From positions 3,487 to 67,486 of the forward strand of contig NMRA01000942.1 of NCBI GenBank assembly GCA_002633005.1: DNA of 64,000 bases, read 5' to 3'. Position numbers and translations under genes: made by a program. Below are positions 11,048 to 62,692 of the stretch, piece after piece. This DNA is from Phoronis australis (lineage: Eukaryota > Animalia > Phoronida). Each line of letters starts with the position of its first letter. Position 1 is the first letter of the stretch. The notes beneath the pieces were generated by a model. That model was not told the DNA's origin. It saw only the letters and a program-made list of their open reading frames with translations, and ran no database searches.

Positions 11048-11057
11048 TTAACAAAGT
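11048..11057 (-). CDS. Gene A exon 8, coding part (G-L-C-stop)
   Basis: Strong acceptor attcacttctatttcag|A CTT TGT TAA completes CAKTCGLC; the homologous site in B gives GVC*. Confidence 0.8.
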
Positions 11058-14000
11058 CTGAAATAGAAGTGAATACAGAGAACTGTAACAAAAATGTTGC
11101 ATTAAAAAGGAACAATAATCAAATAAACAACGGTAAAGTATATTAACATAAAAAACTTCGAAACCATTTAAAGTTTTAAGCATTCAACGACCTCTTTGCA
11201 ATTCTATAATTGATTTGGCAAAAAGATCAATTATCCTGCTTTTTCCGATGCCTAATCATCAAACAATATATTTAATCTTTGACACTTAATGCGTTTTGCA
11301 CTGCGGTAAAATCAATCGGGTAAAATAATATAAATATTGTTCTAAATGGTTAGGCACATCGCGAATCATTTCGGGCTTCCCATATACATGTACACCCTAA
11401 CACTGTAGCAATAAAGATTGCCAGTTATGACTTTGATTTATGATAATGACTATTTTGGGGGAAAACTTGCTCATTTCCTTCCATTTCTTCATTGAACACC
11501 GAGAAAAGTTTCATGTCCGTTGGATCTGAGCCGGATGGGAAGCCCGACAGTCGCGTGATGCGTGAGCAACACAACAGTTAGTCACACGATATCTGCGGAG
11601 TCGTGATTTCAGGAACATGGCATCAAAGCACTGATTGTTTACGTGTCAATATTTCATTAATTAGTTAAAATTTCTGGGTTTCAATATTTGGCCGCACAGA
11701 ATTAAGTTTTGTGGACAGTTGACGAAGTAGTAAACGTGACGTGAGCAGAAAATGTCTAACTATCATTAGACATTGCTAGTTTGTAAGTACGTGGGGATTT
11801 CAGGAAAATCTAGCATGATGGGAAAGATGATCAGATGAGTGAGAGCAGAAGCACACATTTCGCTGCTTGGCCTTATCGTCTCGTTTTCTAGTGGTCCAGA
11901 CGTTACTACCGTAACAATACCAACATAACGGGTAGAGGCTAGGTGAATAATGACGTAAGGGCTTGTGCGTACGCTCACAGATTTCGTCCATTGAAAGTAT
12001 ACGGAGTTGACGGTCCATGTACTATAGGCTATGGTGTAACGAAAGCTTGATTTATACCACAATCCATACCAAAGAAACATGGCACTGTATCCGACGTTTA
12101 GTTTTCACCAACTTATTTATTCACGAATTCTCTTAGCGAGAACCGTGTCATTCTTCCAGTACGTTTATAGCGAAACTAACGAAACGGAAACCTACAAGCG
12201 CAATTGGTTGGTTGTATCTCGTGAAAAGTCAAGGCGTGAACAGTTGTACGAATCAGCAGGGACTGAGTTCATTCTACACCGTGATCGTATTTTCACGTAT
12301 TCACCGGAGATATCAGTTCAGCTAACTACCATTTGAGGCAGCCAGCTGAGATTGAAGTCCCTCGTCTGCACAGGCGCTAGAAGAACTACAGGCAAAATTG
12401 TCAACAATGTACCAGTAGCATTTGATAATTTGTTTTCGGGTATTCAATACACGGAGGATTTTTAAAATCAATGTCATATTTGCCGAGTCATTAACGGTAT
12501 TGGTGTTTGACTGAAGTCAATAAGGAACTAAACGACAAACCATGCTTAAGATTTCAATGACGTTTCATTGTATTATGGGTAAATCATCGTCAACTTTTAT
12601 CATTCAGGGTAGAACTAAGCAGTTGGTTTCACCTAAAATATCTTCCACAAAAGAGACAGTACTGAATAATCACATATCGCGTCTTAAACAGCGCAGATAT
12701 GTACGATAAGTTCGGATTTTGTACTTTAACTTTCGATTTAAAATCTTACCGAACAATCCTTCTCATTTTAAATAGTCAAGAGACCTATTCTAGGTTTCAC
12801 AATGGAAACAGTAGCTCGGTGTGCAATATTGGACCGAGCGAAAATGTAGACAGTCAACAGGAGGCGCTGTTCAAGACTGATATTCAGACAATCCTTATAT
12901 TGGAGAGCCAGCGTCTGCCGGAGTAATTGCCTATTAAAAACGTGAACCGGATTATTCGGTATACGCTTCCAGACCGAAATGAAGCGTAGAAGAAAACTTG
13001 GCAATTCCAAACGTTTCGAAGTTGTTGCTTTCCAAGAAACAGGAGGATACACACAGTACAAACTTCCCCTTAAACATTCTCTCGGCGTGAAACCGGTATT
13101 AGAACTTCTAGTCAAATGCCTTCACTCCAGTTACCAGTGGGTAGGAAAACAGTGCGCTGTTGAAATTTGTAGCATGATTATCTAGTCTGCTTTGCAGTTG
13201 TCAAGATTGTAAAAGGCGTGATGGTAACAAGATGGTAAAAATTGATAATATTAACACAGATTTTTTGGGGATATAGTATCTTTGATATTAAGGAAATTTG
13301 ATAATTTGTAACAAAGTTAGGCAATTACTTTAATAAATGATTCATATCTTACCCGCAGGTCTTTGCACACACCTCCGTGGCGAGTTCACCCTCGAAGCTT
13401 TGTACGTTGCACAAGCTTGTCCACCGTGCACCACAAAATATACGGATATCTTTGCACTCATCTGTAGTGTAGTAATCAAAGTGAATATGATCAGCGAAGG
13501 GCAGATCTATTTTCTCGTAAGGGAGGAGGTGAATTAAAACCAATACGAAAGGAAAGCGTGGGGCAGTGGACGTAAGTTAAGTAGTAACCTTAGACAGAAA
13601 AAAACTCCCTAATATTTTTTTCTTTCAGAAAATAATTATAAGCTTTTAGCAGTTGACAAAACCGAATCTATAAATACGAGTTAGATCGGAGGCCACTGGT
13701 TTGGTATAACCCTAAAGGGTTTTCATGTCACTTTTAATTATTCGTGAGTTCAGTGAATGTAAACATTTGGCGTGACACTGATCATGGGAATTATCTTGTA
13801 AATAATCCATTCATTCAACTTTTAGATTTTTAAAACGTCTATGTTACGTATAAGATGCTACTAATAGATGCCTATATGCCAAATTTTATGAAAACACGTT
13901 AAGGACCTTTGAAGATATAGAGGTAAGCGTAAAAAATTTAAAATTGCCACTAGGGGGCACACCGGAAGTCGGATCCGTGCGAAACGTTGCTGATGTCGTC

Positions 14001-17000
14001 TCATCTATAATAGGAACATATTTGCAAAATTTCATGAATGTACGTCAAAGGCTTTTGGAGATAGAGCAGCGGACGCCGTACGCCGGACGCCGGACGCCGG
14101 ACGCCGGACGGACGGACGGATGGAGATGACGGCATAATGCGTCCACATATGTGGGCGCATAACAAGTCGAGAGCGGTCGGAAGACACCTGCCCCCACACA
14201 ACGCCTCATTCCCATTCGTTCCCACGACGAAAAAGCGCCGGGTTCAAAACCCCAGCGTGATTTTTGCTTGTCTTATCAAGTTGTGGCTTTTGTCTATCTG
14301 ACGAACTCGCTGCATTCTCGATCGAAGCCAAATTACTATTCGATCGGGGGTATTCGTCCGCAGTCTTCGTTTACAGTTTACGCCTACTAGGTTGCGTGCT
14401 CGACATGTGCACACCGAGTGGTAGGGGGGAGGGCTCGAGGGAGAGCTTGAGCGAGCCCCCCATTTGGCGAAGTGGGCAAAAAGGTCCGCCTCAGAGAAAC
14501 AAAAAATCCAAGAAAACGAGGCAAAAGTCCACAAAAAAGGCAGACACACAGTTTACAGTTTTGAAAGTAGTACACCGTCTTTTCTAGTCCTGCAAAAATT
14601 GGATGGCAATAGTAAATAATATTGAAAAGCATTGAAAACAGCACAGCAATTACGTGATATGGTTTCCTAACTCAAGCATGTATCGCCAGGGCAACTTAAT
14701 TCCCATGTGTAGTGTGAACAGATTCCCTTTCGCTAACTGGTACCGGTGCAAGGCGTCACCTTTCAATTTTGTTAGCTCACGTGACTTCTCAATTAAGAAG
14801 GTCAATACAGTCAGGAACTCGGCTGAATTTTCGTTTTGCATGCTGGAATGTGGAACAAGGCTTCACTGTAATTGGCACAACAGTAGCATTATTGGTTCTT
14901 AACACAACTTCTGCCTTGCAAATTTCAAAAGCAACACTTCATCCACACTTTGTCGGCCATCAACATTGAAAGCCATCGGAGTGTGGCGCAGTCAAAATTT
15001 AACAGCTTGTGACTCACTTTCAAACTCGCACCACTTGCCAAAGAAGCCAACATCGCAGATGCACTCGCACGTTTGGAAGTCATACGCGCCACGATAGTTG
15101 CAATATTTCTCACGTGTGGTCGTCAGGCAACCTATAAAGGAGTACTTATTTCACAAGACACTTCTGTGCGCGGTTGCATGAAACAGTCCCAAATAGGGAC
15201 TCAACTAAGTTCCCTAAATCTACTGCTTATTTTTAGACTTGTTAAAACACCGATTGTCCTTTCTGATGCTGTTTGAGTTTCATTACTAGTCAACTTTTGA
15301 TTTTGATACAAATCGGGAGTGATCTCAATGTTGAATTCTCAATATTATATAAAATGTGTAGGTGGGATCTTTTCATGCAACGCTCCTAACTTAAGGACTA
15401 GGTCCCTATTTGTTTTCATGGAATTTTTCCCTCCCCTACTCTATAGACCTTCCATGCTCGTATGTCATCGGCGGAATACTCAAAGTTTGTCAGCAAACTT
15501 ATCCCTGGGATACTGTGCTTGGGAAGGACCTTTGGGGCATTCACACTACAGGTCGACACNATTTTTTGGGGATATAGTATCTTTGATATTAATAAAATTT
15601 GATAATTTGTAACAAAGTTAGGCAATTACTTTAATAAATGATTCATATCTTACCCGCAGGTCTTTGCACACATCTCCGTGGCGAGTTCACCCTCGAGGCT
15701 TTGTACGTTGCACAAGCTTTTCCACCGTGCACCACAAAACATACGGATATCTTTGCACTCATCTGTAGTGTAGTAATCAAAGTGAATATGATCAGCGAAG
15801 GGCAGATCTACTTTTCTCGTAAGGGAGGAGGTGAATTAAAACCAATAAGAAAGGAAAGCGTGGGGCAGTGGACGTAAGTTAAGTAGTAACCTTAGACAGA
15901 AAAAACTCCCTAATATTTTTTCTTTCAGAAAATAATTATAAGCTTTTAGCAGTTGACAAAACCGAATCTATAAATACGAGTTAGATCGGAGGCCACAGGT
16001 TTGGGATAACCCTAAAGGGTTTTCATGTCACTTTTAATTATTCGTGAGTTCAGTGAATGTAAACATTTGGCGTGACACTGATCAAGGGAATTGTCTTGTA
16101 AATAATCCATTCATTCAACTTTTAGATTTTTAAAACGTCTATGTTACGTGTAAGATGCTACTAATAGATGCCTATTTGCCAAATTTTATGAAAACACGTT
16201 AAGGACCTTTGAAGATATAGAGGTAAGCGTAAAAATTTAAAATTGCCACTAGGGGGCACACCGGAAGTCGGATCCGTGCGAAACGTTGCTGATGTCGTCT
16301 CATCTATAATAGGAACATATTTGCAAAATTTCATGAATGTACGTCAAAGGCTTTTGGAGATAGAGCAGCGGACGCCGGACGGATGGAGATGACGGCATAA
16401 TGCGTCCACATATGTGGGCGCATAACAAGTCGAGAGCGGTCGGAAGACACCTGCCCCCACCCAACGCCTCATTCCCATTCGTTCCCACGACGAAAAAGCG
16501 CCGGGTTCAAAACCCAGCGGGATTTTTGCTTGTCTTACCAAGTTGTGGCTTTTGTCTATCTGACGAACTCGCTGCATTCTCGATCGAAGCCAAATTACTA
16601 TTCGGGGGTATTCGTCCGCAGTCTTCGTTTACAGTTTACGCCTACTAGGTTGCGTGCTCGACATGTGCACACCCAGTGGTAGGGGGAGGGCTCGAGGGAG
16701 AGCTTGAGCGAGCCCCCCATTTGGCGAAGTGGGCAAAAAGGTCCGCCTCAGAGAAACAAAAATTCCAAGAAAACGAGGCAAAAGTCCACAAAAAAGGCAG
16801 ACACACAGTTTACAATTTTGAAAGTAGTACACCGTATTTTCTAGTCCTGCAAAAATTGGATGGCACTAGTAAATAATATTTAAAAGCATTGAAAACAGCA
16901 CAGCAATTACGTGATATGGTTTCCTAACTCAAGCATGTATCGCCAGCGCAACTTAATTCCCATGTGTAGTGAGAACAGATTCCCTTTCGCTAACTGGTAC

Positions 17001-20000
17001 CCGTGCAAGGCGTCACCTTTCAATTTAGTTAGCTCACGTGACTTCTCAAATAAGAAGGTCAATACAGTCAGGAACTCGGCTGAATTTTCGTTTTGCATGC
17101 TGGAATGTGGAACAAGGCTTTACTGTAATTGGCACAACAGTAGCATTATTGGTTCTAAACACAACTTCTGCCTTGCAAATTTCAAAAGCAACACTTCATC
17201 CACTCTTTGTCGGCCATCAACATTGAAAGCCATCGGAGTGTGGCGCAAAGTCAAAATTTAACAGCTTGTGACTTACTTTCAAACTCGCACCACTTGCCAA
17301 AGAAGCCAACATCGCAGATGCACTCGCACGTTTGGAAGTCATACGCGCCACGATAGTTGCATGTTTCCTCTCGTGGGGTCGTCAGGCAACCTATAAAGGA
17401 GTACTTATTTCACAAGACACTTCTGTGCGCGGTTGCATGAAACAGTCCCAAATAGGGACTCAACTAAGTTCCCTAAATCTACTGCTTATTTTTGGACTTG
17501 TTAAAACACCGATTGTCCTTTCTGATGCTGTTTGAGTTCCATTACTAGTCAACTTTTGATTTTGATACAAATCGGGAGTGATCTCAATGTTGAATTCTCA
17601 ATATTATATAAAATGTGTAGGTGGGATCTTTTCATGCAACGCTCCTAACTTAAGGACTAGGTCCCTATTTGTTTTCATGGAATTTTTCCCTCCCCTACTC
17701 TATAGACCTTCCATGCTCGTATGTCATCGGCGGAATACTCAAAGTTTGTCAGCAAACTTATCCCTGGGATACTGTGCTTGGGAAGGACCTTTGGGGCATT
17801 CACACTACAGGTCGACACATAACAGCCTTTGACTCCTCCTCTAGACTCTAGCGCATGTCTCAGGTCGACTGCATTTTGAACGTTGTTGTCTTCATTGACG
17901 AAGTATTTGGCATGGGCCTTCAAGGGTGCGATTTTCCTGTCACAGATGTCTTTTCCCTTCTGACTTTCACTGAAGTCGTAGCACAGAATGGAGATGCCGG
18001 TGTTACCAGATATGTAGAACAAATGAATCAGAAGGGCTGCTGAATGGTAACAATTGGCATTGTCGGAAAACATCGGTTATTTGTGGATCCGTAGCTTTCA
18101 CCTGCATTAGCACGTCTAGCGTTAAACAGCAAACAGTGAAAAAGTCTTGCTTGCAGGCATCTAGAGTATGGATGTGAGTATGTACCTGAAATACAACATT
18201 TATGTAACTCAAATAAGTCAGCTAATCTAAAGAACTACCTTATTACATCTTGTTACCACCTAAACCGCAATCACACCACTCAACTTCAAACATGGTTCGT
18301 CTCGAGACGGTTGTTATATCAGTAGCTCCTTCAAAACATTACTAGGGAGGGAGGAAATTCCCCCTTCACAAAGGTATGAAAATCATCCATAAGTACAAAA
18401 AGGCTTCAGTTAAAATGAGGGTTTGTGTGCAAACTCTAGTAAGAAACAAAGAATGCATCACTGTCAAGCTTTTGTCAGGAAATGGCAAGAAAAAGACTAG
18501 ATATTAAGTGCACACTCCCTGTATCATGTACTGTTACACTAAATCAATGTACTAAAAAGAGGTAAAGGCAATTGTTCATCACTGGCTTTCTGTTAAATAT
18601 TGAGCACATCTGAGTATTACCTTGTAACACCTTGAATACTAATAGAGGATTTATTTTTACCTGATTGGTTTCACCTTTCTTTGAGATACAAGCCGCCACG
18701 TGCCATGAAATACCCTTTTTATATGGAATCGTTCTTAATTCCTTAGAATATGGCGTTGCATGAAAAGGTCCCTGATTATTCACATTACAAACACATCAAA
18801 AAGGAACGCGCTGGAAAGATTAACATTAGTGTGAGAAAAAGGTCTACAAATGCACTAAAATATTAGGGAAAAATTCAATTCGTGTTGCGACAGTTTCATG
18901 CAATGGACCACTGGCATCCGGGCACTCAACATGGCGCATTCACGGGTCATAAGGAAGATTCTTCGTAATTTTCGACTTCATGTATTGCTATGTGACTTCC
19001 AGGACTATCCTCAAGGTAATTCCTGTCTTTGAACTGCTATGGCACACACTGCACCGGAAATGGTCAGCTGGTGCAAGGGTCATCTATTTCTCAAAATGTA
19101 TTTTATCAGTTTCAAAGATGCATATCCTCATCTTCAGTGAACAGGTTTTAGGCCAGCTACACTCTTACTACAGGTATCATTGTTTGAACGACACAGTGGC
19201 CTAATAAGGTTAAATAGATCAAAGATTGCCTGGTGTAAACATAAAATTTGAAGTTAGGCTTTATGCCAAAGATTAGCACAAGAAAGCAACCTGGAATTCC
19301 ATATGTTAGGGTCATTAGGTGAGTTTATCGGTTCATCAAGTGCAAGTTTCGTCAGAATAGTCGATTCTTATGTATTGAAAGCCAGACTTCTGTGATTCCG
19401 AGTTTTATATAAAGCTTTTATGTACATGTAATTCACTTCTCTCTATGTTTCACATCACTTACACATTGCCTTATATACAAACCTGGGCCATATGGTCGGG
19501 AGTTATTGCGTTCCATTCTGGAATGGAAATAATTGTGCTGAAGACGTGTATTTGCCCATCGGAATTTTATGATAATCAAATATTATTCACAAAGCCATGT
19601 CGAAAGCCATACTTCAAAAATTACGAAATTAACAGGATTCGTAAGTTCTACAACGTCCACAATTTTCATGAAAAAACAAACGTGAATGGTTTTACATACC
19701 ATAGGTTTTCACTTAGGTTGCAGTGCAGGACTTTCCATAAAAGTTAAGAAATAAACGTTTTTCTTCAGAAATCAGAAGTTAGTGATACTTGCAGTGTATG
19801 TTACCGTAAACAAGAGACATTGTAACACAATTTTACGATCGTTACGTTACTAAAGACAGTGAAATCCGGACAACGACAGTATTCATAAAAAGAAACAATG
19901 CTGTTGCCCAGTTGCCACGGTCAACATCAAAGAACGAAAAAGGAACAACTGAATTGAAAATCAGCCCTTCAGGCTAAAAAGCGGGGACCTCTGGATCTAA

Positions 20001-31856: not shown

Positions 31857-31970
31857 TTCTGACCGGTACAAATGCGTCGTGGACCACTGTGAAGTCACTC
31901 AACAAAGTACTAAAAAGTTCTGTTATTCGGTTGTTATACGTTGTTCATACAAGTACGGGAAGACACATGC

Positions 31971-31980
31971 GTTTATATAC
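31971..31980 (-). promoter_or_regulatory. Candidate TATA box of gene A (GTATATAAAC)
   Basis: TATATAAA about 115 nt upstream of the ATG; gene B has TATAAA near 62730-62735. Motif only. Confidence 0.4.
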
Positions 31981-42669: not shown

Positions 42670-43460
42670 TTTTGTATCTGAGGAAATGTATGACGCATCT
42701 CCCCTTAAACTGCTCCAACCTCACCAAATACCGAGTTGCAAGAATCTTCTACCCATGCAGGGCATTTTCCCACATCTTCGCGCGCCTCTGATAAGAAAAC
42801 GGAATATGAACAGCAAATGGCAGGTCTATTTTGCAGTAATGGGGAGGTGCAACCAAGACGAAAGAAAAGCGTGGCTATTCAAGACGGCACAGCTACTATG
42901 GGGCAGCGGACATGAGTTAAGTAGTTATCTTCGACAGAGAAGAAACCCAAAAAGCTTGAAAGCATTACGTTAGCTGCGACAACGTCGTCGGAGTTGAATG
43001 TTAAGCAGCAGCTGCGTGTATTGATTAAGGACTACTTGTGTTCAATGTTATCAAGAAGAACAAATAGTGAATGCTAAAAGAAACGACAGCACTACAAACG
43101 TAACATCGCCAACTTTAAAATAGACAACGTCAAGTGTCCAGCAGAATTATGTGCAACAAGTTAACTTTATGAAGACCACGTTGCTGTCTTACAATACAAT
43201 TACACTGATTCCCAGAAGTAAAACTTCTTAAATGGTTTGCGAGTCCAGTGACCATAAACATTTAAGGTGACAGTGGTCATGGGAATTATATTGTAAGTAA
43301 TCCATTCATTCAACTTTATGTGGAGTGTTGTGGCGCTGCACAGATAATTAATCCAGTCATTTCCCTAAAATTGGTGATAATTGACCCATCTGAAATTGTC
43401 TCACAAGTGAATGAAAAATCAACCAGTAAGGGCGAAGGTGTTTGGTCGAATATGCGCGCA
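42670..43460 (-). pseudogene. Remnant of a third paralog: decayed ShKT exon (~42670-42825) plus homologous upstream intron
   Basis: tag|AC CTG CCA TTT GCT GTT CAT ATT = (D)LPFAVHI, then a frameshift, EAREDVGKCPAWVEDSCNS...stop. Flanking 42826-43460 aligns with gene B intron 48608-49280. Confidence 0.8.
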
Positions 43461-47819: not shown

Positions 47820-47829
47820 TTAACAAACT
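47820..47829 (-). CDS. Gene B exon 8, coding part (G-V-C-stop)
   Basis: Polypyrimidine acceptor ttctcttctctttcag|A GTT TGT TAA. Confidence 0.82.
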
Positions 47830-50800: not shown

Positions 50801-53800
50801 GTCAGCCGCTGAGTGGTATAGTGGTAGTGTCGGCGACTCGAAACTCTTGAGGCCTCGGTTTCCCGCCAAAATGTTATCTCACTAGTGAGATAACTTTATG
50901 GGTTATTACACGGTTGTATTTGCCATTCGAGGCGATTATTGTGGTAAAATGCACAGTGTTTTAATATCAACATGACACAGCTGTCGTTGTTTAGACAAAT
51001 GGATAAATCAACCTGTATAGTTAGAATATTAAAAACACTGAGAGTTTATGAAAATAGAAGTCTTAACTAGATTTTCTTTTTTCGTCAGTTTAACAAGGAA
51101 ATACAACTTAAAACGCCAAAGCAGCAACACCTGTTAGGCTAGTTAATTCACGTGACTACTCAAATAAGAAGGCCAATTCAATCAGGATCTTGGCTGTATT
51201 TTCGAGTTGCACGCTGGAGAGTGGAACAATGCGATACTGTAATTGGCACATCAGTAACAGTATTGGTCTGAAATAAGACTCCTATCTCGCAACTTTCAAA
51301 AGCAACACCTCGACCACATTTTGTCGGTCAGCAACCTTGCAAGTTATTGGAACGTGGCGCAAAGCAAAAATTTAGCAACTTCTGACTCACCTTGAAACTC
51401 GCACCACTTGCCATAGAAGCCAACTTCGCACTTACACTCGCACGCTTGGAAGTCATACGTGCCATGATTGTTGCATTCTTCCTCACCCGGGGTCGTCATG
51501 CAGCCTGTAAATGAAGGCGTATAGGCTATTTCACAAGGCAACTCTGGGGTCCGCAAAATCACGGGAAATATCATTTCTCGCTCCGTTACGAGCCGTGCGG
51601 ATTCACGTGAAGTTCTTAATGCCAATCAATATGGTTTTCGTGACAGTAAATCTTAAGAAACACAGGTGTTTGAGTTTGCTACCGAACTTGACAACCTCCT
51701 GAGTTGAGCAGGCCTATGTGGAGAGTATCATTATCAAGGTGCATTAGACTTTAGCAGGACATACAACCATACCGCCGTATGATGTCCCGGTGTATTACAA
51801 TTGACAATATTGCGAAAAAAAAACAAGCCAGTCTTTTATCCTCTTAAGGAGGAGCCTGCCACTGAGCTCACTCACACTTGAAACTCTAACCTGCAACAGT
51901 AAGCCTGCCGCGGCCATTGTTGGAGTTTGTTACACCTATGTTAGTTGTATGCACTGAAGTTCCAATAGTGGCGCAACTAACACCGAGTGTCATGCTATTT
52001 TGTCTTAACTGCTACACCAAGTTTTATCTCTGAAAGTTGCTGAAATACATAGGATAGGGTGTTGCATGAAATGCCCCTAATTATTTACAATGCTAACACA
52101 ACGGAAAGAATGTGCTGAAAGGTTAACATTAGTTCGTGAACAAAGTCTACAAATGCACCAAATTTAAGTTCATTCGGTGAGTTTATCGGGTCATTGAGTG
52201 CGATTTTCGTCGAAGTTTTCGATTCCTCTGTATCGACAGCTAGACGTCAGTGATTCTGAGGTCCATGTAAAGCTTTTATGTAATTCACTTCCCTCGATGA
52301 CTCTTGCGATACTGGAAGGAGGAGGGCCAGAGACTATCCCGGTGCCTACCCTCTGACGTCACCACAGAAACAGAAACAGAAACAGAAACAGATGACTCGT
52401 AATATCGGAAACGGTCAGCTGGTAGAAGGGTTATCTGTTTTTTAAAACATCATTTCTCGCACACATTTGAACATACATTTTCAACTTCAGTGTACGGGCA
52501 TAAGGCAAAGTGCCAGTTTACACAATAAGGTGTCAGTTTTCTATTGCGAGATAAATTCATTCAATCAAATACTCTAACTCAGTGGATGTTAAGCTAAATG
52601 CATAATCGTGAACTTAACGATAAGTTCATATGATCACAATTCATTTCCTTTATTGAGGACATTTGGTGTACTAATCGGGTCATTAGTTGCACTTTTCCTT
52701 AACTGTTTCTTTTTCACTCAACTTGCAATAATGTTTGGCACGACTAAGATATTCGCCGCCCTCTTCTATTGATTTATCGTTAGTGTATACCTACGCTCTG
52801 TGATTCAGAAGAAGAGGTCAGTTTGGGCATGTTGATTGTTTTCTGTTGTCCCTAAAATTGGGAAGCTAGACCTTTTAAAATCTTTAAAAATATAAATAAG
52901 ATATAGATGTTGTGCACGTGGCTCACCATCACACCAAGAGCTTGTTGTTGCCAACCTAGATGAAATTGCTATTGCGCCTACAAAAGGATACAAACCTGGG
53001 CCATATGGTCGGGAGCTCATGCGTTGGTAACTGGAATGAAAATAATTATGCTGAAGTCGTGTATGTGCTGATCATTATTGTTATAATAATAAAACCTTAT
53101 TCACAGAGCCATGTCGAGATCCATGCTTCAAAAATTATGAAATTAACAGATTACGTAAGATCTACAACGTCCACAATTTTCATGAGAGAAACGAATAGCA
53201 TTACATACAGAAAAATTATATCGTAAAATAGCTACGCATGTTGATTCACTATGAACATAATGAATATCACTTCTTCGAAACATGATAAAGAAATGATCCT
53301 TTTAAAGTGAAGCAAGTTTCAGGGATTGATTGTGTCAGGTTCACTATGAATGGGTCGCGGGTATAACTTAAAATATTTTTCACTGCGAATAACCATAAAA
53401 ACAGAGAGTGAATTCAATTTTGGCATAGAACTCTAGCCCTGGAATGGCAACTCTGATCTCGCAGCCGCTGAGGTTGCGCCGCGCATGCGTGAGAGTTGTG
53501 AAATTTACTGTCAATAAAATTTTTCGCAACTCCGCCATTTTTGACCGAATTACATAAGAGTCATATCATTAGAAAGCCCTTTGGCAATTCTAGTGTGACA
53601 GGATGACGGAAGAAATTCAAAAAAGTGAGGCAGTCCGCCAAGAGCGGGGCAATTGGCAAGTACACTGTACGCTGTCAGCAACACGATCTGGATTGGGTTC
53701 TTTTAGAAGGCAAACTTTTCATTCGTTGATATTTTATTTAATGAGTATAGGTAAATACCAAACATAAAGTTGGCTTACTTCTAAGAAATCGACTTAACAA

Positions 53801-56800
53801 ACAAACTGCATCTGGGCGACAGATAAACATTGCAGAAATAAATTATTTTCAAAACAATTGAAAACAGTAACACACACACACACAGACACACACACACGCA
53901 CACACACACACACACACACACCCACACACACACNNNNNNNNNNNNNNNNNNNNNNNNNNNNNNNNNNNNNNNNNNNNNNNNNNNNNNNNNNNNNNNNNNN
54001 NNNNNNNNNNNNNNNNNNNNNNNNNNNNNNNNNNNNNNNNNNNNNNNNNNNNNNNNNNNNNNNNNNNNNNNNNNNNNNNNNNNNNNNNNNNNNNNNNNNN
54101 NNNNNNNNNNNNNNNNNNNNNNNNNNNNNNNNNNNNNNNNNNNNNNNNNNNNNNNNNNNNNNNNNNNNNNNNNNNNNNNNNNNNNNNNNNNNNNNNNNNN
54201 NNNNNNNNNNNNNNNNNNNNNNNNNNNNNNNNNNNNNNNNNNNNNNNNNNNNNNNNNNNNNNNNNNNNNNNNNNNNNNNNNNNNNNNNNNNNNNNNNNNN
54301 NNNNNNNNNNNNNNNNNNNNNNNNNNNNNNNNNNNNNNNNNNNNNNNNNNNNNNNNNNNNNNNNNNNNNNNNNNNNNNNNNNNNNNNNNNNNNNNNNNNN
54401 NNNNNNNNNNNNNNNNNNNNNNNNNNNNNNNNNNNNNNNNNNNNNNNNNNNNNNNNNNNNNNNNNNNNNNNNNNNNNNNNNNNNNNNNNNNNNNNNNNNN
54501 NNNNNNNNNNNNNNNNNNNNNNNNNNNNNNNNNNNNNNNNNNNNNNNNNNNNNNNNNNNNNNNNNNNNNNNNNNNNNNNNNNNNNNNNNNNNNNNNNNNN
54601 NNNNNNNNNNNNNNNNNNNNNNNNNNNNNNNNNNNNNNNNNNNNNNNNNNNNNNNNNNNNNNNNNNNNNNNNNNNNNNNNNNNNNNNNNNNNNNNNNNNN
54701 NNNNNNNNNNNNNNNNNNNNNNNNNNNNNNNNNNNNNNNNNNNNNNNNNNNNNNNNNNNNNNNNNNNNNNNNNNNNNNNNNNNNNNNNNNNNNNNNNNNN
54801 NNNNNNNNNNNNNNNNNNNNNNNNNNNNNNNNNNNNNNNNNNNNNNNNNNNNNNNNNNNNNNNNNNNNNNNNNNNNNNNNNNNNGTGCATTAGACTTTAG
54901 CAGGACATACAACCATACCGCCGTATGATGTCCCGGTGTATTACAATTGACAATATTGCGAAAAAAATTACAAGCCAGTCTTTTATCATCTTAAGGCGTA
55001 GCCTGCCACTGAGCTCACTCACACTTGAAACTCTAACCTGCAACAGTAAGCCTGCCGCGGCCATTGTTGGAGTTTGTTACACCTATGTTAGTTGTATGCA
55101 AAAGTTCCAATAGTGGCGCAACTAACACCGAGTGTCCTTATGCTATTTTCTCTTAACTGCTACACCAAGTTTTATCTCTGAAAGTTGCTGAAATACATAG
55201 GATAGGGTGTTGCATGAAAATGCCCCTAATTATTTACAATGCTAACACAACAGAAAGAATGTACTGAAAGGTTAACATTAGTTCGTGAACAAAGTCTACA
55301 AATGCACCAAATTTAAGTTCATTCGGTGAGTTTATCGGGTCATTGAGTGCGATTTTCGTCGAAGTTTTCGATTCCTCTGTATCGACAGCTAGACGTCAGT
55401 GATTCTGAGGTCCATGTAAAGCTTTTATGTAATTCACTTCTCTCGATGACTCGTGCGATACCGGAAGGAGGAGAGACAGAGACTATCCCGGTGCCTACCC
55501 TCTGACGTCACCACAGAAACAGAAACAGAAACAGATGACTCGTAATATCGGAAACGGTCAGCTGGTAGAAGGGTTATTTGTTTTTTAAAACATCATTTCT
55601 CGCAAACATTTGAACATACATTTTCAACTTCAGCGAACGGGCACAAGGCAAAGTGCCAGTTTACACAATAAGGTGTTAGTTTTGTATTGAGAGATAAATT
55701 CATTCAATCAAATATTCTAACTCAATGGATGTTAAGCTAGATGCGTAATCGTGAACTTAACGATAAGTTCATATGATCACAATTCATTTCTTTAAATGAG
55801 GACATTTGGTGTACTAATCGGGTTGCACTTTTCCTTAACTGTTTCTTTTTCACTCAACTTGCAATAATGTTTGCCACGATATTCGCCGACCTCTTCTATT
55901 GATTTATCGTTAGTGTATACCTACGCTCTGTGATTCAGAAGAAGAGGTCAGTTTGGGCATGTTGATTGTTTTCTGTTGTCCCTAAAATCAGGAAGCTAGA
56001 CCTTTTAAAATCCTTAGAAAGATAAATAAGATATAGATGTTGTGCACATGGCTCACCATCACACCAAGAACCTGTTGTTGCCAAGGTAATGGCTTAGATG
56101 AAATTGCTATTGCGCGTACAAAAGGATACAAACCTGGGCCATATGGTCGGGAGCTCGTGCGTTGGTAACTGGAATGAAAATAATTATGCTGAAGGCGTGT
56201 ATTTGCTGATCATTATTGTTATAATAATAAAACCTTATTCACAAAGCCATGTCGAGAGCCATGCTTCAAAAATTATGAAATTAACAGATTACGTAAGATC
56301 TACAACGTCCACAATTTTCCATGAGAGAAACGAATAGCATTACATACAGAAAAATTATATCGTAAAATAGCTACGAATGTTGGTTCACTATGAACATAAT
56401 GAATATCACTTCTTCGAAACATGATGAAGAAATGATTCTTTTAAAGTGAAGCAAGTTTCAGGGATTAATTGTGTCAGGTTCACTATGAATGGGTCGCGGG
56501 TATAACTTGACATATTTTTCACTGGGGATAACCTTAAAAACAGAGAGTGAAGTCAATTTTGGCATAGAACTCTAGCCCTGGAATGGCAACTCTAATCTCG
56601 CAGCCGCTGAGGTTGGGCTGCGCATGCGTGAGTGTTTGAACTTTACCGTCAATAAAACTTTTCGAAACTCCGCCATTTTTGACCGAATTACATAAGAGTC
56701 ATATCATTACAAAGCCCTTTGACAGTTCTTGATGATTATACCAGAAGCAAAAGATAAATGATTTCATTCTAAAAACCAATAGTGTTACCAAATTGCGAAA

Positions 56801-59800
56801 AATAACAGCGTGTAATAGTAAGTATAAGATAGAACCCGAGAGGTTATATAAATGACAAGTGAAGCTATAAGGGAAATGATTTGAATGATTCAAACAAAGG
56901 TTTTAGAAAATGAATACCTCACACTTGCTCTGGATAATTCAGTCGGTCATTCATCCAAAACTATACATGTACATCTTTATACATTATAATTAATTGGACC
57001 TTTGACACAATTACATTCTTCAGTAAAAACTCAGAATGCAGTGACATTTACAAAAAGTGCCATAAACTACTCCAAGTATCCATCTGAAATTTGCAGGTTT
57101 TCTGATACATAAACACGGAAAAAACATCTAACAGGTAGCATTGTAAATAACTGTGGATAGGTCTTCACATTGGTTGAAGTGTAGGACTTTTCGTAAAAGT
57201 TTAGAAATAAAATTTTTTTCTTCAGAAAATAAAAGTTAGTGTTCCTGATACATGCTGTGTATGATACTGCAAACAGAAGACATTGGAACACATTTTCTCG
57301 TTTGTTATGTTCGTAAAGAAAGTGGACTCCGGACAATAACAAAATTCATAAAAAGAGACAATGTTACTTTGAACACCTGTAGCCAAGTTGTCACGTTAAA
57401 CATTAAAGAACAAAAAATGGAATAACTGGATTGAAGATCAGGACTTCCTTATAAAAATGGGACATCTAGGTCTAAGCCAAAACGTAAAGTTGAAATTTCG
57501 CTGCAACACGCAAAGACGTACCGAGAGTTTTTTTGTCGAACTGGAGATGTACAACCCAAAAATTCTGGGCAGCTTTTAGCTGTTGTTATAGTTGAAATGA
57601 AAATTCCAAGTGTTGCAAAAAACCATGAAATGTCACGCTTTTTTTTTTCAGTCGAGTGGGAAAAAGCTGTGTGGAAACTTACAAAAATAATATGTCAATT
57701 TGGCCGTATGCCAAAAAGCGGGACATTTATAGTGTGACAGAATGGCGGAAAATTCAAAAAAGTGAGGCAGTTCGCCAAGAGCGGGGCAATTGGCAAATAC
57801 ACTGTACGCTGTCTTTTAAAAGGTAAACTTTTCATTTTTTGACATTTTTTTAATAAGTATAGGTAAATACCAAACATAAAGTTGGCCTACTTCTAAGAAA
57901 TCGAATTCACAAACAAACGGCATCTAGGCAACAGATAAACATTGCACAAATAAATTATTATCAAAACAATTGAAAACAGTAACACACACAAACACACGCA
58001 CACACACACACACACACGCACGCACGCACACACACACACGCACGCACACACACACACACAGCACACACACACAAGCACACACACAAGCACGCACGTACAC
58101 TGACATTTGGTTAAGCAATTGCTAGTAATTTTTCCAAAATTTTGTAAACACTCCAGTCTTCGGGCCTAAACTTTTCAATTAGACCAAATGTAACTTCTAT
58201 AACACGATTTTATCTCTCAAAAATAAGTTGTTCAAACAGTCTTGGCGTGCAGCATAAGATCTTGTCGTAAGTTGCTCTACGACTGGGGCTGAAAAGTTAT
58301 CAGAGGTTAATGGCGGCATCCACCCAGGGCCACAGGTCGGTTCTTATAAAGAATAGTGTCACGGTAACTGTCGGGTTTGTTGACTAACTTTGCCGAGAAA
58401 TCGCTGCTTGTATAGAACTGTACTTCAGAAGAATCTCGCGTGATGAACAATAATAATATAATGAAAATGAAGCAATGCATTTAGGCTTGATTTGATTACT
58501 GTAACTCTCAATCAAAATCAGTCGAGCAGGCAGCAAAAATTCTCATTGCAAACTCTTGCGGCTACTCTCGAGGTTGCAAGTTTTAGTAACAAAAGACATA
58601 GGTCACGTGCGGAAGTTGGCATTCCAGGGGTAGAGTTCTATGATTTTTACGAAGACTATTTTTGGTGAGAACTGATACAAATAACGCTGCCCAATTTTCC
58701 ACTGGATTTCAAATATTTACCGTTTTGATATTCGCTAACAAAATTTATACTTCCACCAACTCAAGCTTCAACATTAATGTTAAAGTAATGAATCCTCACA
58801 CTACGTGTCATTTCGTCTGCGTTTTTGCCACAGTTCGTCATTGCGATTGCGTGGTTCAATGCAACTGCCTATTACGAGCGTTTGATTTATCTTGACAACA
58901 TGACTAAACAACTTACCTGTCGGGATTAAGAAAAGAGGGGTAGTAATTACACACGAACACGAACTGGTTGTCAAGTTCTCTCGTGAATGTGTTTGTGGCG
59001 CTGTCGTAGCCTCCATAAGCTTTCTCGCAAAACTTATAACCACAGCCAACTTTATGCGTCTTCTGCCATGCCATCTATGGGGATAAAAGCAAAGTTTATA
59101 GTCTAGGAAGAGCTCATCGTCAAAGTCATATAAACATTTGGTTGTAGTGCCTCATAGCAACAGAGTGGGTTGGTGATTATAGCACTGCTATGTAAAGTGT
59201 AGGGTATTGTTGGGAATATAACGGAGAAAAATGTTCAAACTGTTCTACAACCACACAATTTAGCTGTTAACTTTGGAATTAGAGTGACTTTTGTATTAAC
59301 TTAAAATGGATTGCTGTGTTTCAACATGGCCGCTATCAGCGCCATCAACTTTCAATTTGGGTTATCATTTAACTTGGTAAAAAATTAATTAATAAAGTCT
59401 GCTACAGAACAGCCAACTGGGAGTTCGGCAACAAAAAGCCTATATGGATTTTCAAAATTTAGAAACCACCATTTTTGATTTTATCTCAGCATCGACTTAG
59501 GGAGCAGATAAAGAAAGAATACATTGTCTTTCGTCCTTAACACTTATTCAGATTGCGTGCAACTTACGCTAAGTTGGGCATGTCAAAAACAGAACTTCAA
59601 ACAATTGGACATACTGTAGAGGTCGAACTCCGCGCTACTGGGGAAATTTTTGAACAGATGTGAAATTGTCAGTCTCCTTCTGACGTGGATGCGCTAGCCT
59701 TGTAATCCGTGAAAGATCCCCTTTGGGTACTCTTTCCTATGTTTATGGTACATTGTGTACTCAGCCCTTTTAATTTTCCGTGACACAATAATCGAGCACG

Positions 59801-62692
59801 TGTGCCTAGTAACCATACGCACCTGCAAGTAGTGCCCGCATACTCTACCAGGATCACACGTGGCTGTGGTATAGTTGTACTGAAGTTTTTCTTGCCACCA
59901 ACCGAGAATATCTGCTGCAAAGTCGATCTCGTGATTGGCGGTATTGTAACCATACCGCAAGTAGTTCTGTCCATTCGTGTACCATGACCTGGACGGCAGT
60001 CCTGGACAGTAACTGAAAAGAAATAATTCGCAAGTCATCCTTATCAGAGTGATCCAAAAACCACCATTTTCTTCACTTCTCTTCGATTAAGTATTCGCTA
60101 ACTAGGAACTCGTCTGTGGAAGCAATACAGACACTTATCTTAAGATCCTATGAAAACAGCAATAATTTCAAGTTTGCTTTCAAAGATTAGACTCATGGCC
60201 CACAATAACGAGAATGTAAAAATCGAAATTCCGCTTACGTTGAAAACATGATGCTATTTTGAAAGAACATCACTTGAGAGCTTGCTGTGATTAAACTAGT
60301 TCGTGTTAAACTTGATTTTATGGAGAATTTTGGGGAAAATGAACCGGATAGGGTATCTTTTAATTGTTGCGAGCTGTAAAGTTACAATTACCTGTACTGT
60401 GATTTTGGTGTGAAACAATGGCATAAAAAATAGTTCATTTTACGTAACAAACGTCGGACACATTGCAAATCGAAACCTAATTCAATTTATAACATGGACC
60501 TTGCCAAATATATTGCCATACAGACTGGACGGGTCTCCGGCGTACACATGTGACATTTCTGCAATTGGCAATTGTTATGATCGTGCATAAGTCAACATTG
60601 ACGTTGAGGAAAACCTGAAGAAGAATTTTCAGGATAATGATAATGATAATAAAAACTTAAGATAAGCTCGAAATACGACACCAAATCATTTCTGCAACTA
60701 CTGTAACTGTATAATTTTGGTGATTTTTAACACATTTTACTCCTATTTTTGTAAAGTCACCAACCGAAGGTGCATGTGTCCCCACTGAATCGGTTTGTGG
60801 AAAGTGATTGAAGGTTAAAGTCATCAAGACCAAACATTTGTCTAAGTTAAGACCTTAATTCGTGCTGTTCATTCAGAAGGCAAAAATTCGGAGAAAAGCA
60901 AATCCATGAAGACAGCGTCAGCTTTCGGTCTTACGTAGCAGAGGTAACGAAATTAAGCCAAGTTTGGTCACATTGGACTCTGTTAACTACGCCTTAGCAG
61001 TATGTTACCGATTCATTAGATTTTGTGAGAAGTTATTCCGCAGTTAAAATAAACATTTGCGGATTGACTAAGTGGGAATAGCATTATTTTGTTTCAACGA
61101 TTAAGTACTAAATTGGTGTCAATATCCGTTGACAGTTGGCAACCGGGTTTCGGATCACAGTCTGAGATAAAACGGTGAAACTTCCATGAAACGGTCCTTA
61201 GAACGCTTCTGGTCAGACATTCGGCATTAGTCTGGGGACATCAAATGAATGGAAAATAGCCGGAGGAATCACAAAACAGCGTAGAACTACTTACTACCGA
61301 AAGTAGGAGTGTCTCAGTTGACACGTGTTCGCCATCATTTGTGCGCGACCTGCTAACATGTCGTCCCATTCCTACAAAGAACATTGATAACTGAAATGCA
61401 CAAGTTGCAGAGCGTCAAAGTCGCAGACAATTTCGAATCAGAAGGATGTGATTTGGGAAAATTTAACGGGAATAAAAAGTAAAACCTTTATTTGAATCCT
61501 TCATGTATCGCATCCATACAATGTTTCTGTATAAGATGCACTACAACTTGTTTTAGGGTTAAAAACAATAATGAATTGCGCCGTTTTCTCTCAATTTCCT
61601 TAGCGCGCCAAGATTCAATTTCCCTTACCAACTAGAACGACAAAACTATCAGCAGCTCAAGAAAACGGTTCCGAGTTAATTTGGTGGGTCAATCCTTAAT
61701 TTTCAAATTCGAAAATGGCGCTTGTACAAATTACCTGTGAGTTGCAGTCCAATTTGGCAACAATTCAAGATGAGATGAGCCTGGTAACGCTTGGTGTATA
61801 AGCTAACGCAACGTCTATATGTAGGTACTGCACAATTTTATACTTTTTCTGGTTGGGTTAGGGTCTCAAAACGTTGCACTACCCTGCACAATTCTATGGG
61901 GAACAAACGCTGCACATCACACACCGTGAAGATTGTTTAATGCAACTTGTCTACGTTTTTTCACAGTGTGTCTGATTTCGCGCTACATTAATGTATACCA
62001 AAGAGTAGCAGGTTTTACAATTTGGAGTTGCACATCGAGTTACGCTCAGATGTTGATAGGGGGCACTTTCAGCATCTACTGTGAAAGTGCTTGAATCCAC
62101 ACGTTGTAAGACCCTTCTTTCTGTTAGACTGGTTTTTGTCAACAGCTAGGTCACCGTTATGTACGTTATTTCGCGTCTTCTCGCGTTTAGGAAAAATTCA
62201 ACGAGCGTTGCGAAAACCAGTAGGACGCTGTCGAATACGCTTGAATAAAAAGAAATTTCAACTTCAGCAGGAGCTTAATACATAAAGTTGACAGTCCCCA
62301 AAATTTGATGATGCTCCTCCCTGTGTTTGAAAAAACACTTAATTTGGAGCCTGGTTCGAGAGAATCGCATCGTAAAAGCGAGCAGCCAAACTTTTAAGTT
62401 CAAACTTAACGCGGTTTGACAGTAAGCTATCGAGTTTAGGTCTCCGGGACAATGAATGATACTATCACTAACTCACCATTGTTTTAAATTTGATATCTTC
62501 CGTTTCCAGACTTCTTCTCAATTTGTTGTGCACATCAACAATGACCTGTTTATCAGTATCACTTATCGGTTTGTCTTCTGCAACGACGGCGCAGTTTTCA
62601 GGAGTGTCGTCCGGCAGGTCCGGATACGTGTCGTCGCTGACTGCATGAGCTGAGGCCAGAACGCATAGAAGGAAAAGAGCCAGGAACGCCAT
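47820..62692 (-). CDS. Gene B: secreted CAP(SCP)-EGF-ShKT protein, 8 coding exons, 317 aa. join(-): 62477-62692, 61295-61371, 59823-60012, 58917-59074, 56134-56168 (or 52996-53030), 51391-51504, 48454-48607, 47820-47829
   Basis: Canonical splice sites with the same phases as gene A; 954 nt open. Motifs HNKLR, EWDDMLA, CQLRHS, WWQEK, CGHYLQMAW, VGCG, VCNYYP; EGF; Sh[38 protein letters not shown]. Confidence 0.92.
48454..48607 (-). CDS. Gene B exon 7, ShKT ([52 protein letters not shown])
   Basis: 154 nt, phase 1-2; typical ShKT C-x-D...C-x-x-W...C...C-P-x-T-C. The frame differs from the supplied ORF. Confidence 0.88.
49445..49681. mobile_element. Harbinger-like MITE (~235 bp); a related right end lies at 1-141
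   Basis: TIR CAGGGGCCTGTTCCA / TGGAACGGCTCCCTG; internal sequence matches window start (gctaagtcagttttgttggaacgg). Confidence 0.7.
50102..50277. repeat. Imperfect ~175-bp palindrome/hairpin in gene B intron 6
   Basis: tagattattacatg...gtcgttatc...gtggattttggagaattatc mirrored by gataattctacaaaatccac...gataacgac...catgtaataatcta around a gcgttagc loop. Confidence 0.8.
51391..51504 (-). CDS. Gene B exon 6, EGF-like ([38 protein letters not shown])
   Basis: 114 nt, phase 1-1, tttacag acceptor and gtgagt donor; EGF-like CxNHG...CxC..GFYG..CE. Confidence 0.9.
56134..56168 (-). CDS. Gene B exon 5, 35-nt microexon ([13 protein letters not shown]); second copy at 52996-53030 ([13 protein letters not shown])
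   Basis: ttttcattccag acceptor, gtttgt donor; homologous to 19483-19517. Confidence 0.85.
57981..58098. repeat. (CA)n compound microsatellite; other copy at 53870-53933, paralogous short tract at ~20486-20520
   Basis: Direct observation. Confidence 0.95.
58917..59074 (-). CDS. Gene B exon 4 ([18 protein letters not shown]...[15 protein letters not shown])
   Basis: 158 nt with canonical splice sites; VGCG and VCNYYP. Confidence 0.93.
59823..60012 (-). CDS. Gene B exon 3 ([18 protein letters not shown]...[26 protein letters not shown])
   Basis: Canonical splice sites; CAP W-x-x-E and CGHY motifs. Confidence 0.93.
61295..61371 (-). CDS. Gene B exon 2 ([25 protein letters not shown])
   Basis: 77 nt, tctttgtag acceptor and gtaagt donor; C-x-x-x-H-S CAP motif. 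Confidence 0.92.
62477..62692 (-). CDS. Gene B exon 1 ([34 protein letters not shown]...[19 protein letters not shown])
   Basis: Kozak-like accATGG, signal peptide ending AHA, gtgagt donor. Confidence 0.92.

What the first reader, a model, noticed from the sequence alone, without database searches (positions are those of the whole stretch)
11048..62692. Tandem cluster of secreted CAP-EGF-ShKT genes: candidate invertebrate toxin/defence CRISP-like family
Seen: two intact 8-exon paralogs (318 and 317 aa) with identical intron phases, reconstructed from splice sites; most exons are absent from or mis-framed in the ORF track. Known: vertebrate and venom CRISPs join a CAP domain via a Cys-rich hinge to an ShK-like ion-channel-regulator domain, and sea-anemone ShK blocks Kv channels. 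Here the usual hinge is replaced by a Cys-free microexon plus an EGF-like exon before ShKT. Inference: a lineage-specific secreted family, possibly ion-channel-active, involved in defence, venom, mucus or gamete function.
Basis: partly seen in the sequence, partly recalled or inferred. Interest (0 to 1): 0.8.

Follow-up and report, generated by a model that had tools for sequence, protein, structure and literature searches.

The report
Hinge-less CAP-EGF-ShKT secreted gene family
Two neighbouring genes of an invertebrate animal, one of them confirmed by RNA reads, encode likely secreted proteins of a known CAP-EGF-ShKT design that have lost the usual cysteine hinge and lack the classic channel-blocking residue pair, so they likely act as fast-evolving surface-binding defence proteins rather than as potassium-channel toxins.

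Summary
The genes are real. Two minus-strand, 8-exon paralogs have GT-AG introns with identical phases (0,2,0,2,1,1,2). They encode 301 and 303 aa, not 318 and 317. RNA reads support 6 of 7 junctions of gene A, including the direct CAP-end to EGF to ShKT joins, so no hinge exon is hidden. Gene B is intact, but its own splicing was not shown. Reads reveal a third, strongly expressed paralog outside the window; it and gene A dominate in different samples. Pfam matches CAP, EGF-like and ShK. The domain order is not new: acorn-worm proteins in public databases read CAP-hinge-EGF-ShKT, and mollusc type II CAP-ShK proteins mix EGF and ShKT, also in non-venomous species. The distinctive point is the lost four-cysteine hinge. 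The micro-exon is the ordinary PYxxG end of CAP, not a hinge substitute. The ShKT domains have no Lys-Tyr pair and gene A's is acidic, which argues against ShK-type channel block. dN/dS between paralogs is near 0.8. The duplicated exons sit at assembly gaps and are probably haplotype copies. The scan's earlier findings hold no such locus. Verdict: new variant of a known family, function untested.

The parts
62477..62692 (-). Gene A exon 1: hydrophobic signal-like segment, acidic spacer, first CAP helix
   Evidence: its 3' end is the exact loose end of 411 X3 reads laid on an exon 2
61295..61371 (-). Gene A exon 2: CAP helix with conserved Trp, Cys and the first tetrad His
59823..60012 (-). Gene A exon 3: CAP core up to the GHY.Q motif
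   Evidence: (E 3.7e-12)
58917..59074 (-). Gene A exon 4: CAP C-terminal strands with a 17-residue insertion
   Evidence: junction to exon 5 in 473 loose-end reads
56134..56168 (-). Gene A exon 5, 35-nt micro-exon: PYxxG end of the CAP domain, no Cys, no hinge
   Evidence: 582 of 582 X3 reads carry this copy's base at the one differing position
52996..53030 (-). Second copy of gene A exon 5, inside a 1.85-kb block duplicated beside an N gap; probably a haplotype copy
51391..51504 (-). Gene A exon 6: six-Cys EGF-like module of the C-x-C-x-C type, phase 1-1
   Evidence: joints
48454..48559 (-). Gene A exon 7: ShKT domain, Cys 1-5, acidic, no Lys-Tyr pair
   Evidence: joints
47820..47829 (-). Gene A exon 8 coding part: sixth ShKT Cys and stop; 3' UTR follows
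   Evidence: 291 junction reads
42705..42789 (-). Decayed orphan ShKT exon: first Cys absent and an in-frame stop; preceded by intron-6-like sequence
   Evidence: no Pfam match at E 0.1
31644..31856 (-). Gene B exon 1: hydrophobic signal-like segment and first CAP helix
   Evidence: a 169-nt X4 contig is identical to 31754-31921
24056..24132 (-). Gene B exon 2 (first tetrad His absent)
22617..22812 (-). Gene B exon 3: CAP core
21326..21483 (-). Gene B exon 4: CAP C-terminal strands
19483..19517 (-). Gene B exon 5 micro-exon (PYxxG)
17277..17390 (-). Gene B exon 6, EGF-like, copy 1
15654..15762 (-). Gene B exon 7, ShKT, copy 1
15018..15131 (-). Gene B exon 6, copy 2, in a 2.3-kb block duplicated across a single N; probably a haplotype copy
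13353..13461 (-). Gene B exon 7, copy 2, same duplicated block
11048..11057 (-). Gene B exon 8 coding part: sixth ShKT Cys and stop

Best explanation
These are two tandem paralogs of a family of at least three genes that encode likely secreted CAP-EGF-ShKT proteins, likely derived from a CAP-hinge-EGF-ShKT ancestor by loss of the hinge, and likely working as surface-binding defence or recognition proteins rather than as potassium-channel pore blockers. Shown: exon structure, splicing of gene A, domain order, absence of the hinge, fast divergence, and different paralogs dominating different RNA samples. Inferred: the protein is exported; the CAP domain binds lipid or a cell or microbe surface; the EGF module acts as a short spacer that presents a variable ShKT tip to a partner; the paralogs are specialised by tissue or stage.
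For: Splicing. Domains. Hydrophobic N-terminus in both genes (9-residue hydropathy 3.4 and 3.5). Ancestor layout: 7 of 7 non-query hits have PYxxG-x2 then a four-Cys hinge then the EGF module, and 6 of 7 go on to a complete ShKT-like Cys array, of which 5 of 6 match Pfam ShK and 1 passes the cut-off. Their EGF profile ranks the window's three EGF exons 1st, 2nd and 4th, their ShKT profile ranks the three ShKT exons 1st to 3rd of 3824 segments, and their hinge profile finds nothing better than E 0.72. No Lys-Tyr, Lys-Phe, Arg-Tyr or Arg-Phe pair; A exon 7 has 2 K/R against 5 D/E. The only Foldseek match of the exon 7 model is aurelin, a dyad-less ShKT antimicrobial peptide (E 1.2, TM 0.58; PMC10608444). 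dN/dS for exons 2-7 is 0.81 (bootstrap 0.55-1.24). Exon 7 differs at 41 of 106 nt against 1320 of 6169 aligned non-coding nt. Lipid binding by CAP domains, also without the tetrad: PMC4921858. Oyster type II CAP-ShK genes are mantle-specific: PMC6409789.
Against: No function was tested, and the tissues of samples S1-S3 and the organism are unknown. The profile hits to EGF (E 0.01-0.04) and ShKT (E 0.2-1) are weak and rest on rank. The CAP domain is no closer to the acorn-worm proteins than to plant or sponge CAPs, so independent assembly by phase-1 exon shuffling is as possible as hinge loss. The aurelin match is not significant (VIA Z 2.2, rmsd 3.0, 30 aligned). The dN/dS interval includes 1, so relaxed constraint fits as well as positive selection, and 6 of 6 well-supported read variants checked in exons 6-7 are synonymous (5 in gene A reads, 1 mainly from the third paralog). 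An acidic ShKT tip also fits poorly with aurelin-like binding of anionic membranes.
Confidence: 0.5

Rival explanations
1. A venom or defensive-toxin CRISP-like family whose ShKT tip modulates ion channels of prey or predators.
For: Signal-like N-terminus, tandem duplication, high dN/dS and an ShKT exon that diverges faster than introns, strong sample-specific expression. CAP-ShKT transcripts are abundant in vampire-snail salivary glands (PMC6409789) and bloodworm venom glands (PMC4202326); dyad-less ShKT domains can still act on channels (same papers).
Against: No Lys-Tyr pair, and an acidic domain in the expressed gene A. The same module order is found in acorn worms, which I recall as non-venomous, and in non-predatory gastropods and bivalves (PMC6409789). 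A dyad-less anemone ShKT peptide was inactive on Kv channels (PMC5793123). No evidence that the animal has a venom organ.
Confidence: 0.15
2. Gamete-associated CAP proteins, like sperm CRISPs or ascidian Urabin, used in sperm-egg binding or gamete coating; the paralog switch between samples reflects sex or gonad.
For: Gene A junction reads number 291-456 in X3 against 0-9 in X1 and X2, while a third paralog has about 1000 reads in X1 and X2. Reproductive proteins often evolve fast (recalled). CiUrabin and HrUrabin are CRISP-family sperm proteins that bind the egg coat (PMC9265791).
Against: Urabins end in a GPI-anchor site (PMC9265791); these proteins end at the last ShKT Cys with no hydrophobic tail. 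Sample tissues are unknown.
Confidence: 0.2
3. Structural or regulatory extracellular-matrix proteins (mantle, tube, cuticle or larval matrix) with no defence role; one paralog is drifting.
For: Oyster type II CAP-ShK genes are mantle-specific (PMC6409789). Gene B keeps only 1 of 4 CAP tetrad residues, and its ShKT exon bin has depth under 1 in X1-X3. Read variants checked in exons 6-7 are synonymous.
Against: All 20 Cys of the mature region are kept in both genes while surface residues of exon 7 change at twice the non-coding rate, which suits a changing binding partner better than a scaffold.
Confidence: 0.15

Closest known systems
Acorn-worm CAP-hinge-EGF-ShKT proteins in public databases (P0032 Saccoglossus kowalevskii; P0033, P0034, P0036 Ptychodera flava; P0035, P0037 Glandiceps talaboti; auto-named CRISP-like, GLIPR1-like or cysteine-rich venom protein-like)
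   Same: CAP ending in PYxxG, then an EGF module with C-x-C-x-C-x8-C, then after 3 residues a six-Cys ShKT-like array ending C-x3-C-x2-C.
   Different: They keep a four-Cys hinge, an extra Cys in the EGF module and mostly a Cys-rich linker, and add a further Cys-rich module and tail. The window's proteins go from PYxxG straight into EGF and stop at the ShKT end. Sequence similarity is remote.
Molluscan type II CAP-ShK proteins (CreCAP-ShK 4-7 of Cumia reticulata; clade includes Conus Mr30 and Tex31) (PMC6409789)
   Same: Signal peptide, CAP, then EGF-like and non-canonical ShKT modules with an altered Cys3-Cys4 loop; tissue-specific high expression; duplicated family.
   Different: I could not see their figure or sequences, so whether one of them has exactly this hinge-less layout is open.
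Vertebrate and reptile-venom CRISPs
   Same: N-terminal CAP and C-terminal ShK-fold domain in one secreted protein.
   Different: CRISPs join CAP to the ion-channel-regulator domain through a hinge (PMC8857485). Here the hinge is absent and an EGF module lies between.
CLEC18 (CAP-EGF-EGF-like-CTLD) (PMC11103991)
   Same: CAP followed by EGF; an innate-immune, lipid- and glycan-binding role of the kind proposed here.
   Different: Ends in a C-type lectin domain, not ShKT; about 40 residues lie between CAP and EGF.
ShK and BgK anemone Kv toxins; aurelin
   Same: Six-Cys ShKT pattern (Pfam PF01549); two-helix model whose only match is aurelin (weak).
   Different: ShK is a free peptide with a Lys22-Tyr23 dyad (PMC6409789, PMC5793123). 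Here the domain is tethered, has a 13-residue Cys3-Cys4 loop, no such pair, and is acidic (A) or about neutral (B).

Membership tests
CAP superfamily | CAP domain (PF00188) with CAP1-4 motifs and core cysteines | tested here: met
   Exon 4 matches PF00188 (fragment, below cut-off); 17 of 18 scanned hits of exon 3 are CAP proteins; exons 1-4 of both genes align in order to a CAP profile.
CAP superfamily | Cavity tetrad His, Glu, Glu, His (PMC4921858); typical but not obligatory | tested here: not met
   Gene A keeps 3 of 4 (the Glu of the GEN-type motif is absent, as in the acorn-worm relatives); gene B keeps 1 of 4 (per-exon alignment).
CAP superfamily | Secretion signal | tested here: inconclusive
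   Hydrophobic N-terminal stretch in both genes; no signal-peptide predictor was available.
CRISP (vertebrate and venom type) | Cys-rich hinge between CAP and the C-terminal domain | tested here: not met
   Exon 5 has no Cys and splices directly to the EGF exon in 456 reads; hinge profile best E 0.72 in the window.
CRISP (vertebrate and venom type) | C-terminal ShK-fold domain | tested here: met
   PF01549 21.8 bits for A exon 7; sixth Cys in exon 8, junction in 291 reads.
Invertebrate CAP-ShK, type II-like (CAP with EGF-like and ShKT modules) | EGF-like plus ShKT modules after CAP | tested here: met
   same order as P0032-P0037.
Invertebrate CAP-ShK, type II-like (CAP with EGF-like and ShKT modules) | CAP domain falls in the type II clade of PMC6409789 | not testable with these tools
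ShK-type Kv channel toxins | ShKT six-Cys framework | tested here: met
   Spacing 5 or 6, 7, 13, 3, then 2 residues to the sixth Cys.
ShK-type Kv channel toxins | Lys-Tyr functional dyad on a basic surface | tested here: not met
   No KY, KF, RY or RF pair in 3 of 3 exon 7 copies; K+R against D+E is 2:5, 5:5 and 4:5. A dyad formed in space by non-adjacent residues was not tested.
ShK-type Kv channel toxins | ShK fold by structure | tested here: inconclusive
   Model of exon 7 alone, pLDDT 66, two helices; aurelin is the top match but weak.
ShK-type Kv channel toxins | Channel block | not testable with these tools
   Needs electrophysiology.
EGF-like domain | Six-Cys EGF pattern and fold | tested here: inconclusive
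   Six Cys are kept in 3 of 3 copies, and Pfam EGF-type families match at E about 2e-4 to 5e-4 but below cut-off; PDB sequence hits are EGF modules at E 0.25-0.6; the model was poor (pLDDT 59).

The most novel reading that the evidence does not exclude
A distinct hinge-less CAP-EGF-ShKT subfamily has expanded in this lineage into a mosaic, exon-swapping gene family whose acidic ShKT tips diversify under selection and whose members switch on by tissue or stage, forming an undescribed secreted recognition or toxin system that uses the ShK fold on targets other than Kv channels.
Probability: 0.2. Interest if true: 0.6.

Novelty: new variant of a known kind. Interest (0 to 1): 0.33.

Why it matters
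CAP-ShKT proteins are common in invertebrates and are often labelled venom proteins by similarity alone. This family is a natural test of what the CRISP hinge and the ShKT tip do: the hinge is gone, the dyad is absent, yet gene A is well expressed and all cysteines are kept. It also corrects annotation: no close relative of these genes is in the protein collections searched, and the apparent exon duplications are probably assembly copies. The gain is modest unless a target is found.

Tried and rejected
Word-based homologue searches with exon 4 (3 candidates, none at E 0.01) and with the EGF exon alignment (2 candidates, none) found nothing; these are weak searches. The full HMMER search with exon 3 gave 28 hits, best E 1.5e-9 and none at 1e-10, generic CAPs from plants, a sponge, a snail, an acorn worm, a frog and metagenomes. 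PDB sequence searches with the ShKT exon gave no ShK-family hit, and the structure searches listed no ShK, BgK or CRISP chain; with so short and weak a model this absence is inconclusive. The EGF exon model was too poor to use. The run search listed no RNA holder; the raw-read runs came by species label. No whole genome was held, so the third paralog could not be located. The Atlas search with the homologue P0007 returned only general CAP clusters below score 0.9. Rejected: an extra hinge exon (direct E5-E6 reads); lengths of 318 and 317 aa; tandem use of the duplicated B exons 6-7 (exon 7 ends in phase 2 and exon 6 starts in phase 1, so a run-on would shift frame); an EGF-like ORF at 9997-10191 (no Pfam match). 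Literature searches found no paper on a hinge-less CAP-EGF-ShKT family; the library lacks most subscription papers, and figures were not visible. The scan's own findings held nothing on this locus or look-alikes.
Full report
1. Observation. The window is animal DNA of about 39% G+C with five N runs. Two genes lie on the minus strand. Gene A exons: 62692-62477, 61371-61295, 60012-59823, 59074-58917, 56168-56134, 51504-51391, 48559-48454, 47829-47820. Gene B exons: 31856-31644, 24132-24056, 22812-22617, 21483-21326, 19517-19483, 17390-17277, 15762-15654, 11057-11048. All 14 introns are GT-AG, with phases 0,2,0,2,1,1,2 in both genes. Summed over exons, 170 of 297 aligned residues are identical (57%, where the exon 7-8 border was still one base off).

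2. RNA evidence. Three stranded raw-read runs with the same species label (X1-X3; about 18-19% of each read) and one contig set (X4, RNA only by guess) were laid on 15570-32100 and 47300-53300. In X3, gene A joints E5-E6, E6-E7 and E7-E8 have 456, 368 and 291 reads, all in the orientation expected for a minus-strand transcript; X1 has 4, 8, 0 and X2 has 0, 9, 2. E4-E5 is shown by 473 loose ends identical to the end of A exon 4, and E1-E2 by 411 loose ends identical to the end of A exon 1. E3-E4 has 103 X3 reads laid on gene B coordinates; I assign them to A because X3 reads on exon 3 carry A sequence (372 loose ends). E2-E3 was not among the rows shown (53 joints were not displayed). So 6 of 7 junctions of A are supported and no hinge exon is skipped over. 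Gene B has no junction support of its own: its ShKT exon bin has mean depth 0.32, 0.65 and 0.07, and the only exact B match shown is a 169-nt X4 contig at 31754-31921. X1 and X2 hold about 1000 reads each (1058, 941) of a third paralog that is not in the window: B-like at the 3' end of exon 1, identical to A over the first 30 nt of exon 2, with its own exon 5 and its own ShKT start, also joined CAP end to EGF to ShKT. Eight X2 reads show a further E4-E5 variant. The family therefore has at least three members with mosaic similarity, and different members dominate different samples.

3. Domains. Scanned exon by exon, exon 4 matches CAP, exon 6 EGF-type families (below cut-off) and exon 7 ShK (A above cut-off, both B copies just below); the sixth ShKT Cys is in exon 8. 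Exons 1-4 align in order to a CAP profile, with a 17-residue insertion in exon 4. The CAP region has 8 Cys outside the signal segment; two of them (exon 1 and the start of exon 3) are extra to the usual six and kept in both genes, so they may form a family-specific bond (inference). Of the CAP tetrad (PMC4921858, passages), A keeps 3 of 4 residues and B 1 of 4. Both N-termini are hydrophobic, and neither protein has a hydrophobic C-terminal tail. No whole-protein scan or model was made, so domain packing is open.

4. The hinge. Searching with the acorn-worm CAP protein P0007 gave 8 proteins of 119 candidates. All 7 besides the query read PYxxG-x2-hinge (C-x2-C-x5/6-C-x4-C) and then an EGF module with C-x-C-x-C-x8-C; 6 continue into a full six-Cys array, and P0038 ends at its first Cys. 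Of those 6 arrays, 5 match Pfam ShK and 1 passes the cut-off; whole-protein scans had missed them. Profiles of these modules pick out the window's EGF exons (ranks 1, 2, 4) and ShKT exons (ranks 1-3) among 3824 six-frame segments, weakly by E-value, while the hinge profile finds nothing. Among the 38 stored proteins, a small and biased set, 12 have the hinge start, 6 end near PY, and 0 have PYxxG followed directly by Cys as here. The window's exon 5 is thus the ordinary end of CAP, and EGF-ShKT is a shared downstream block. P0007 and P0032 differ by exactly that block, which suggests it is an exon-bounded unit there too (inference). The simplest history is loss of the hinge from a CAP-hinge-EGF-ShKT gene. 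Independent assembly is not excluded: exon 6 is a phase 1-1 module, and the CAP part is no closer to acorn-worm CAPs than to others.

5. Known context. PMC6409789 (passages, section 2.2, first part of the Discussion; figures not seen; supplement gave no text) describes mollusc type II CAP-ShK proteins with EGF-like and non-canonical ShKT modules, present in non-predatory gastropods and bivalves, mantle-specific in oyster and salivary in the vampire snail; it counts over 600 CAP-ShKT proteins in databases. PMC4202326 (passages) reports CAP+ShKT in bloodworm venom glands. PMC12964963 (passages) adds salivary CAP proteins of other snails. PMC8857485 (passages) defines CRISPs as CAP, hinge and ion-channel-regulator domain. 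PMC11103991 (passages) gives CLEC18 as CAP-EGF-EGF-like-CTLD. PMC9265791 (passages) gives the GPI-anchored ascidian Urabins. Searches found no description of the hinge-less layout; the unseen figure and supplement of PMC6409789 could hold such a case.

6. Toxin question. ShK needs a Lys22-Tyr23 dyad (PMC6409789, PMC5793123, passages). None of 3 exon 7 copies has a KY, KF, RY or RF pair; B has one RW; K+R against D+E is 2:5 in A and 5:5 and 4:5 in B; the Cys3-Cys4 loop is 13 residues. That Kv blockers are basic is recalled. A model of exon 7 (pLDDT 66, two helices) matched only aurelin in Foldseek (E 1.2, TM 0.58) and had aurelin at the top in VIA (Z 2.2, tied with two unrelated chains). Aurelin is a dyad-less ShKT antimicrobial peptide (PMC10608444, passages). 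This is a weak hint only. Against my reading, dyad-less ShKT domains can modulate channels (PMC6409789, PMC4202326).

7. Evolution. Between A and B, dN/dS over exons 2-7 (222 codons) is 0.81, bootstrap 0.55-1.24; exon 4 gives 0.25, exons 6 and 7 about 1.1; exon 1 is saturated. Exon 7 differs at 39% of bases against 21% in aligned non-coding DNA, while exons 2-6 differ at 16-23%. Between the two copies of B exons 6-7, 7 of 8 changed codons alter the residue, and exon bases differ at 10 of 223 against 29 of 2032 non-coding (Fisher p 0.006 for non-synonymous sites, post hoc; three of the changes fall in one codon; the non-synonymous share alone is not above neutral, p 0.65). Against this, 6 of 6 read variants checked in exons 6-7 are synonymous (only the best-supported rows were shown). 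The picture is constraint on the cysteine frame with a fast-changing ShKT surface between paralogs; positive selection is suggested, not shown.

8. Duplicated exons. All 5 N runs have a 94-99% direct duplication beside them, including the blocks that double A exon 5 and B exons 6-7. At the one position that separates the A exon 5 copies, 582 of 582 X3 reads carry the 56168-56134 base. These are most likely unmerged haplotypes. A decayed ShKT exon lies at 42789-42705 behind intron-6-like sequence; it is the closest window match to the third paralog's ShKT start (8 mismatches in 30).

9. Mechanism and verdict. Most likely (0.5) the proteins are secreted, use the CAP domain to bind lipid or a surface, and hold a variable ShKT tip on an EGF spacer for defence or recognition at a body surface, with paralogs divided by tissue or stage. 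Rivals: gamete protein (0.2), ion-channel toxin (0.15), matrix protein (0.15). They belong to the CAP superfamily and resemble type II CAP-ShK proteins, are not CRISPs in the strict sense (no hinge), and fail the dyad test for ShK-type toxins. New variant of a known kind; interest 0.33.

Noticed in passing
window 2852-3202 and 28318-28701 (+): THAP-domain fragments (Pfam E 0.012 and 1.2e-6) inside a dispersed repeat of about 1.7 kb (2695-4384 and 28188-29922, 80%) that draws many RNA reads from both strands; probably a transposon. One copy lies in intron 1 of gene B.
   Followed up: partly
window 42705-42789 (-), with 42789-46340: Decayed orphan ShKT exon downstream of gene A, most like the ShKT start of the third paralog seen in RNA; a remnant of a partial gene copy next to an N gap.
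   Followed up: partly
RNA reads laid at window 31643-31761, 51396-51502, 19502-21340: A third paralog, abundant in X1 and X2, with a B-like exon 1 end and an A-like exon 2 start, and a fourth exon 4-5 junction variant (8 reads in X2): signs of gene conversion or exon swapping in the family.
   Followed up: partly
window N runs at 2442, 7929, 15560, 45229-45938, 53934-54884: Every N run has a 94-99% direct duplication beside it; exon duplications in this assembly should be treated as possible haplotype copies.
   Followed up: yes
stored proteins P0007 and P0032: Two Saccoglossus records differ by one clean block holding EGF plus ShKT (residues 193-261 of P0032); their ShKT-like domains are missed by whole-protein Pfam scans.
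   Followed up: partly
window 25264-25539; 50092-50287; 14070-14124: A 55-bp tandem repeat in 5 copies in intron 1 of gene B, a roughly 200-bp imperfect palindrome in intron 6 of gene A, and a short GC-rich repeat inside a multi-copy element.
   Followed up: no
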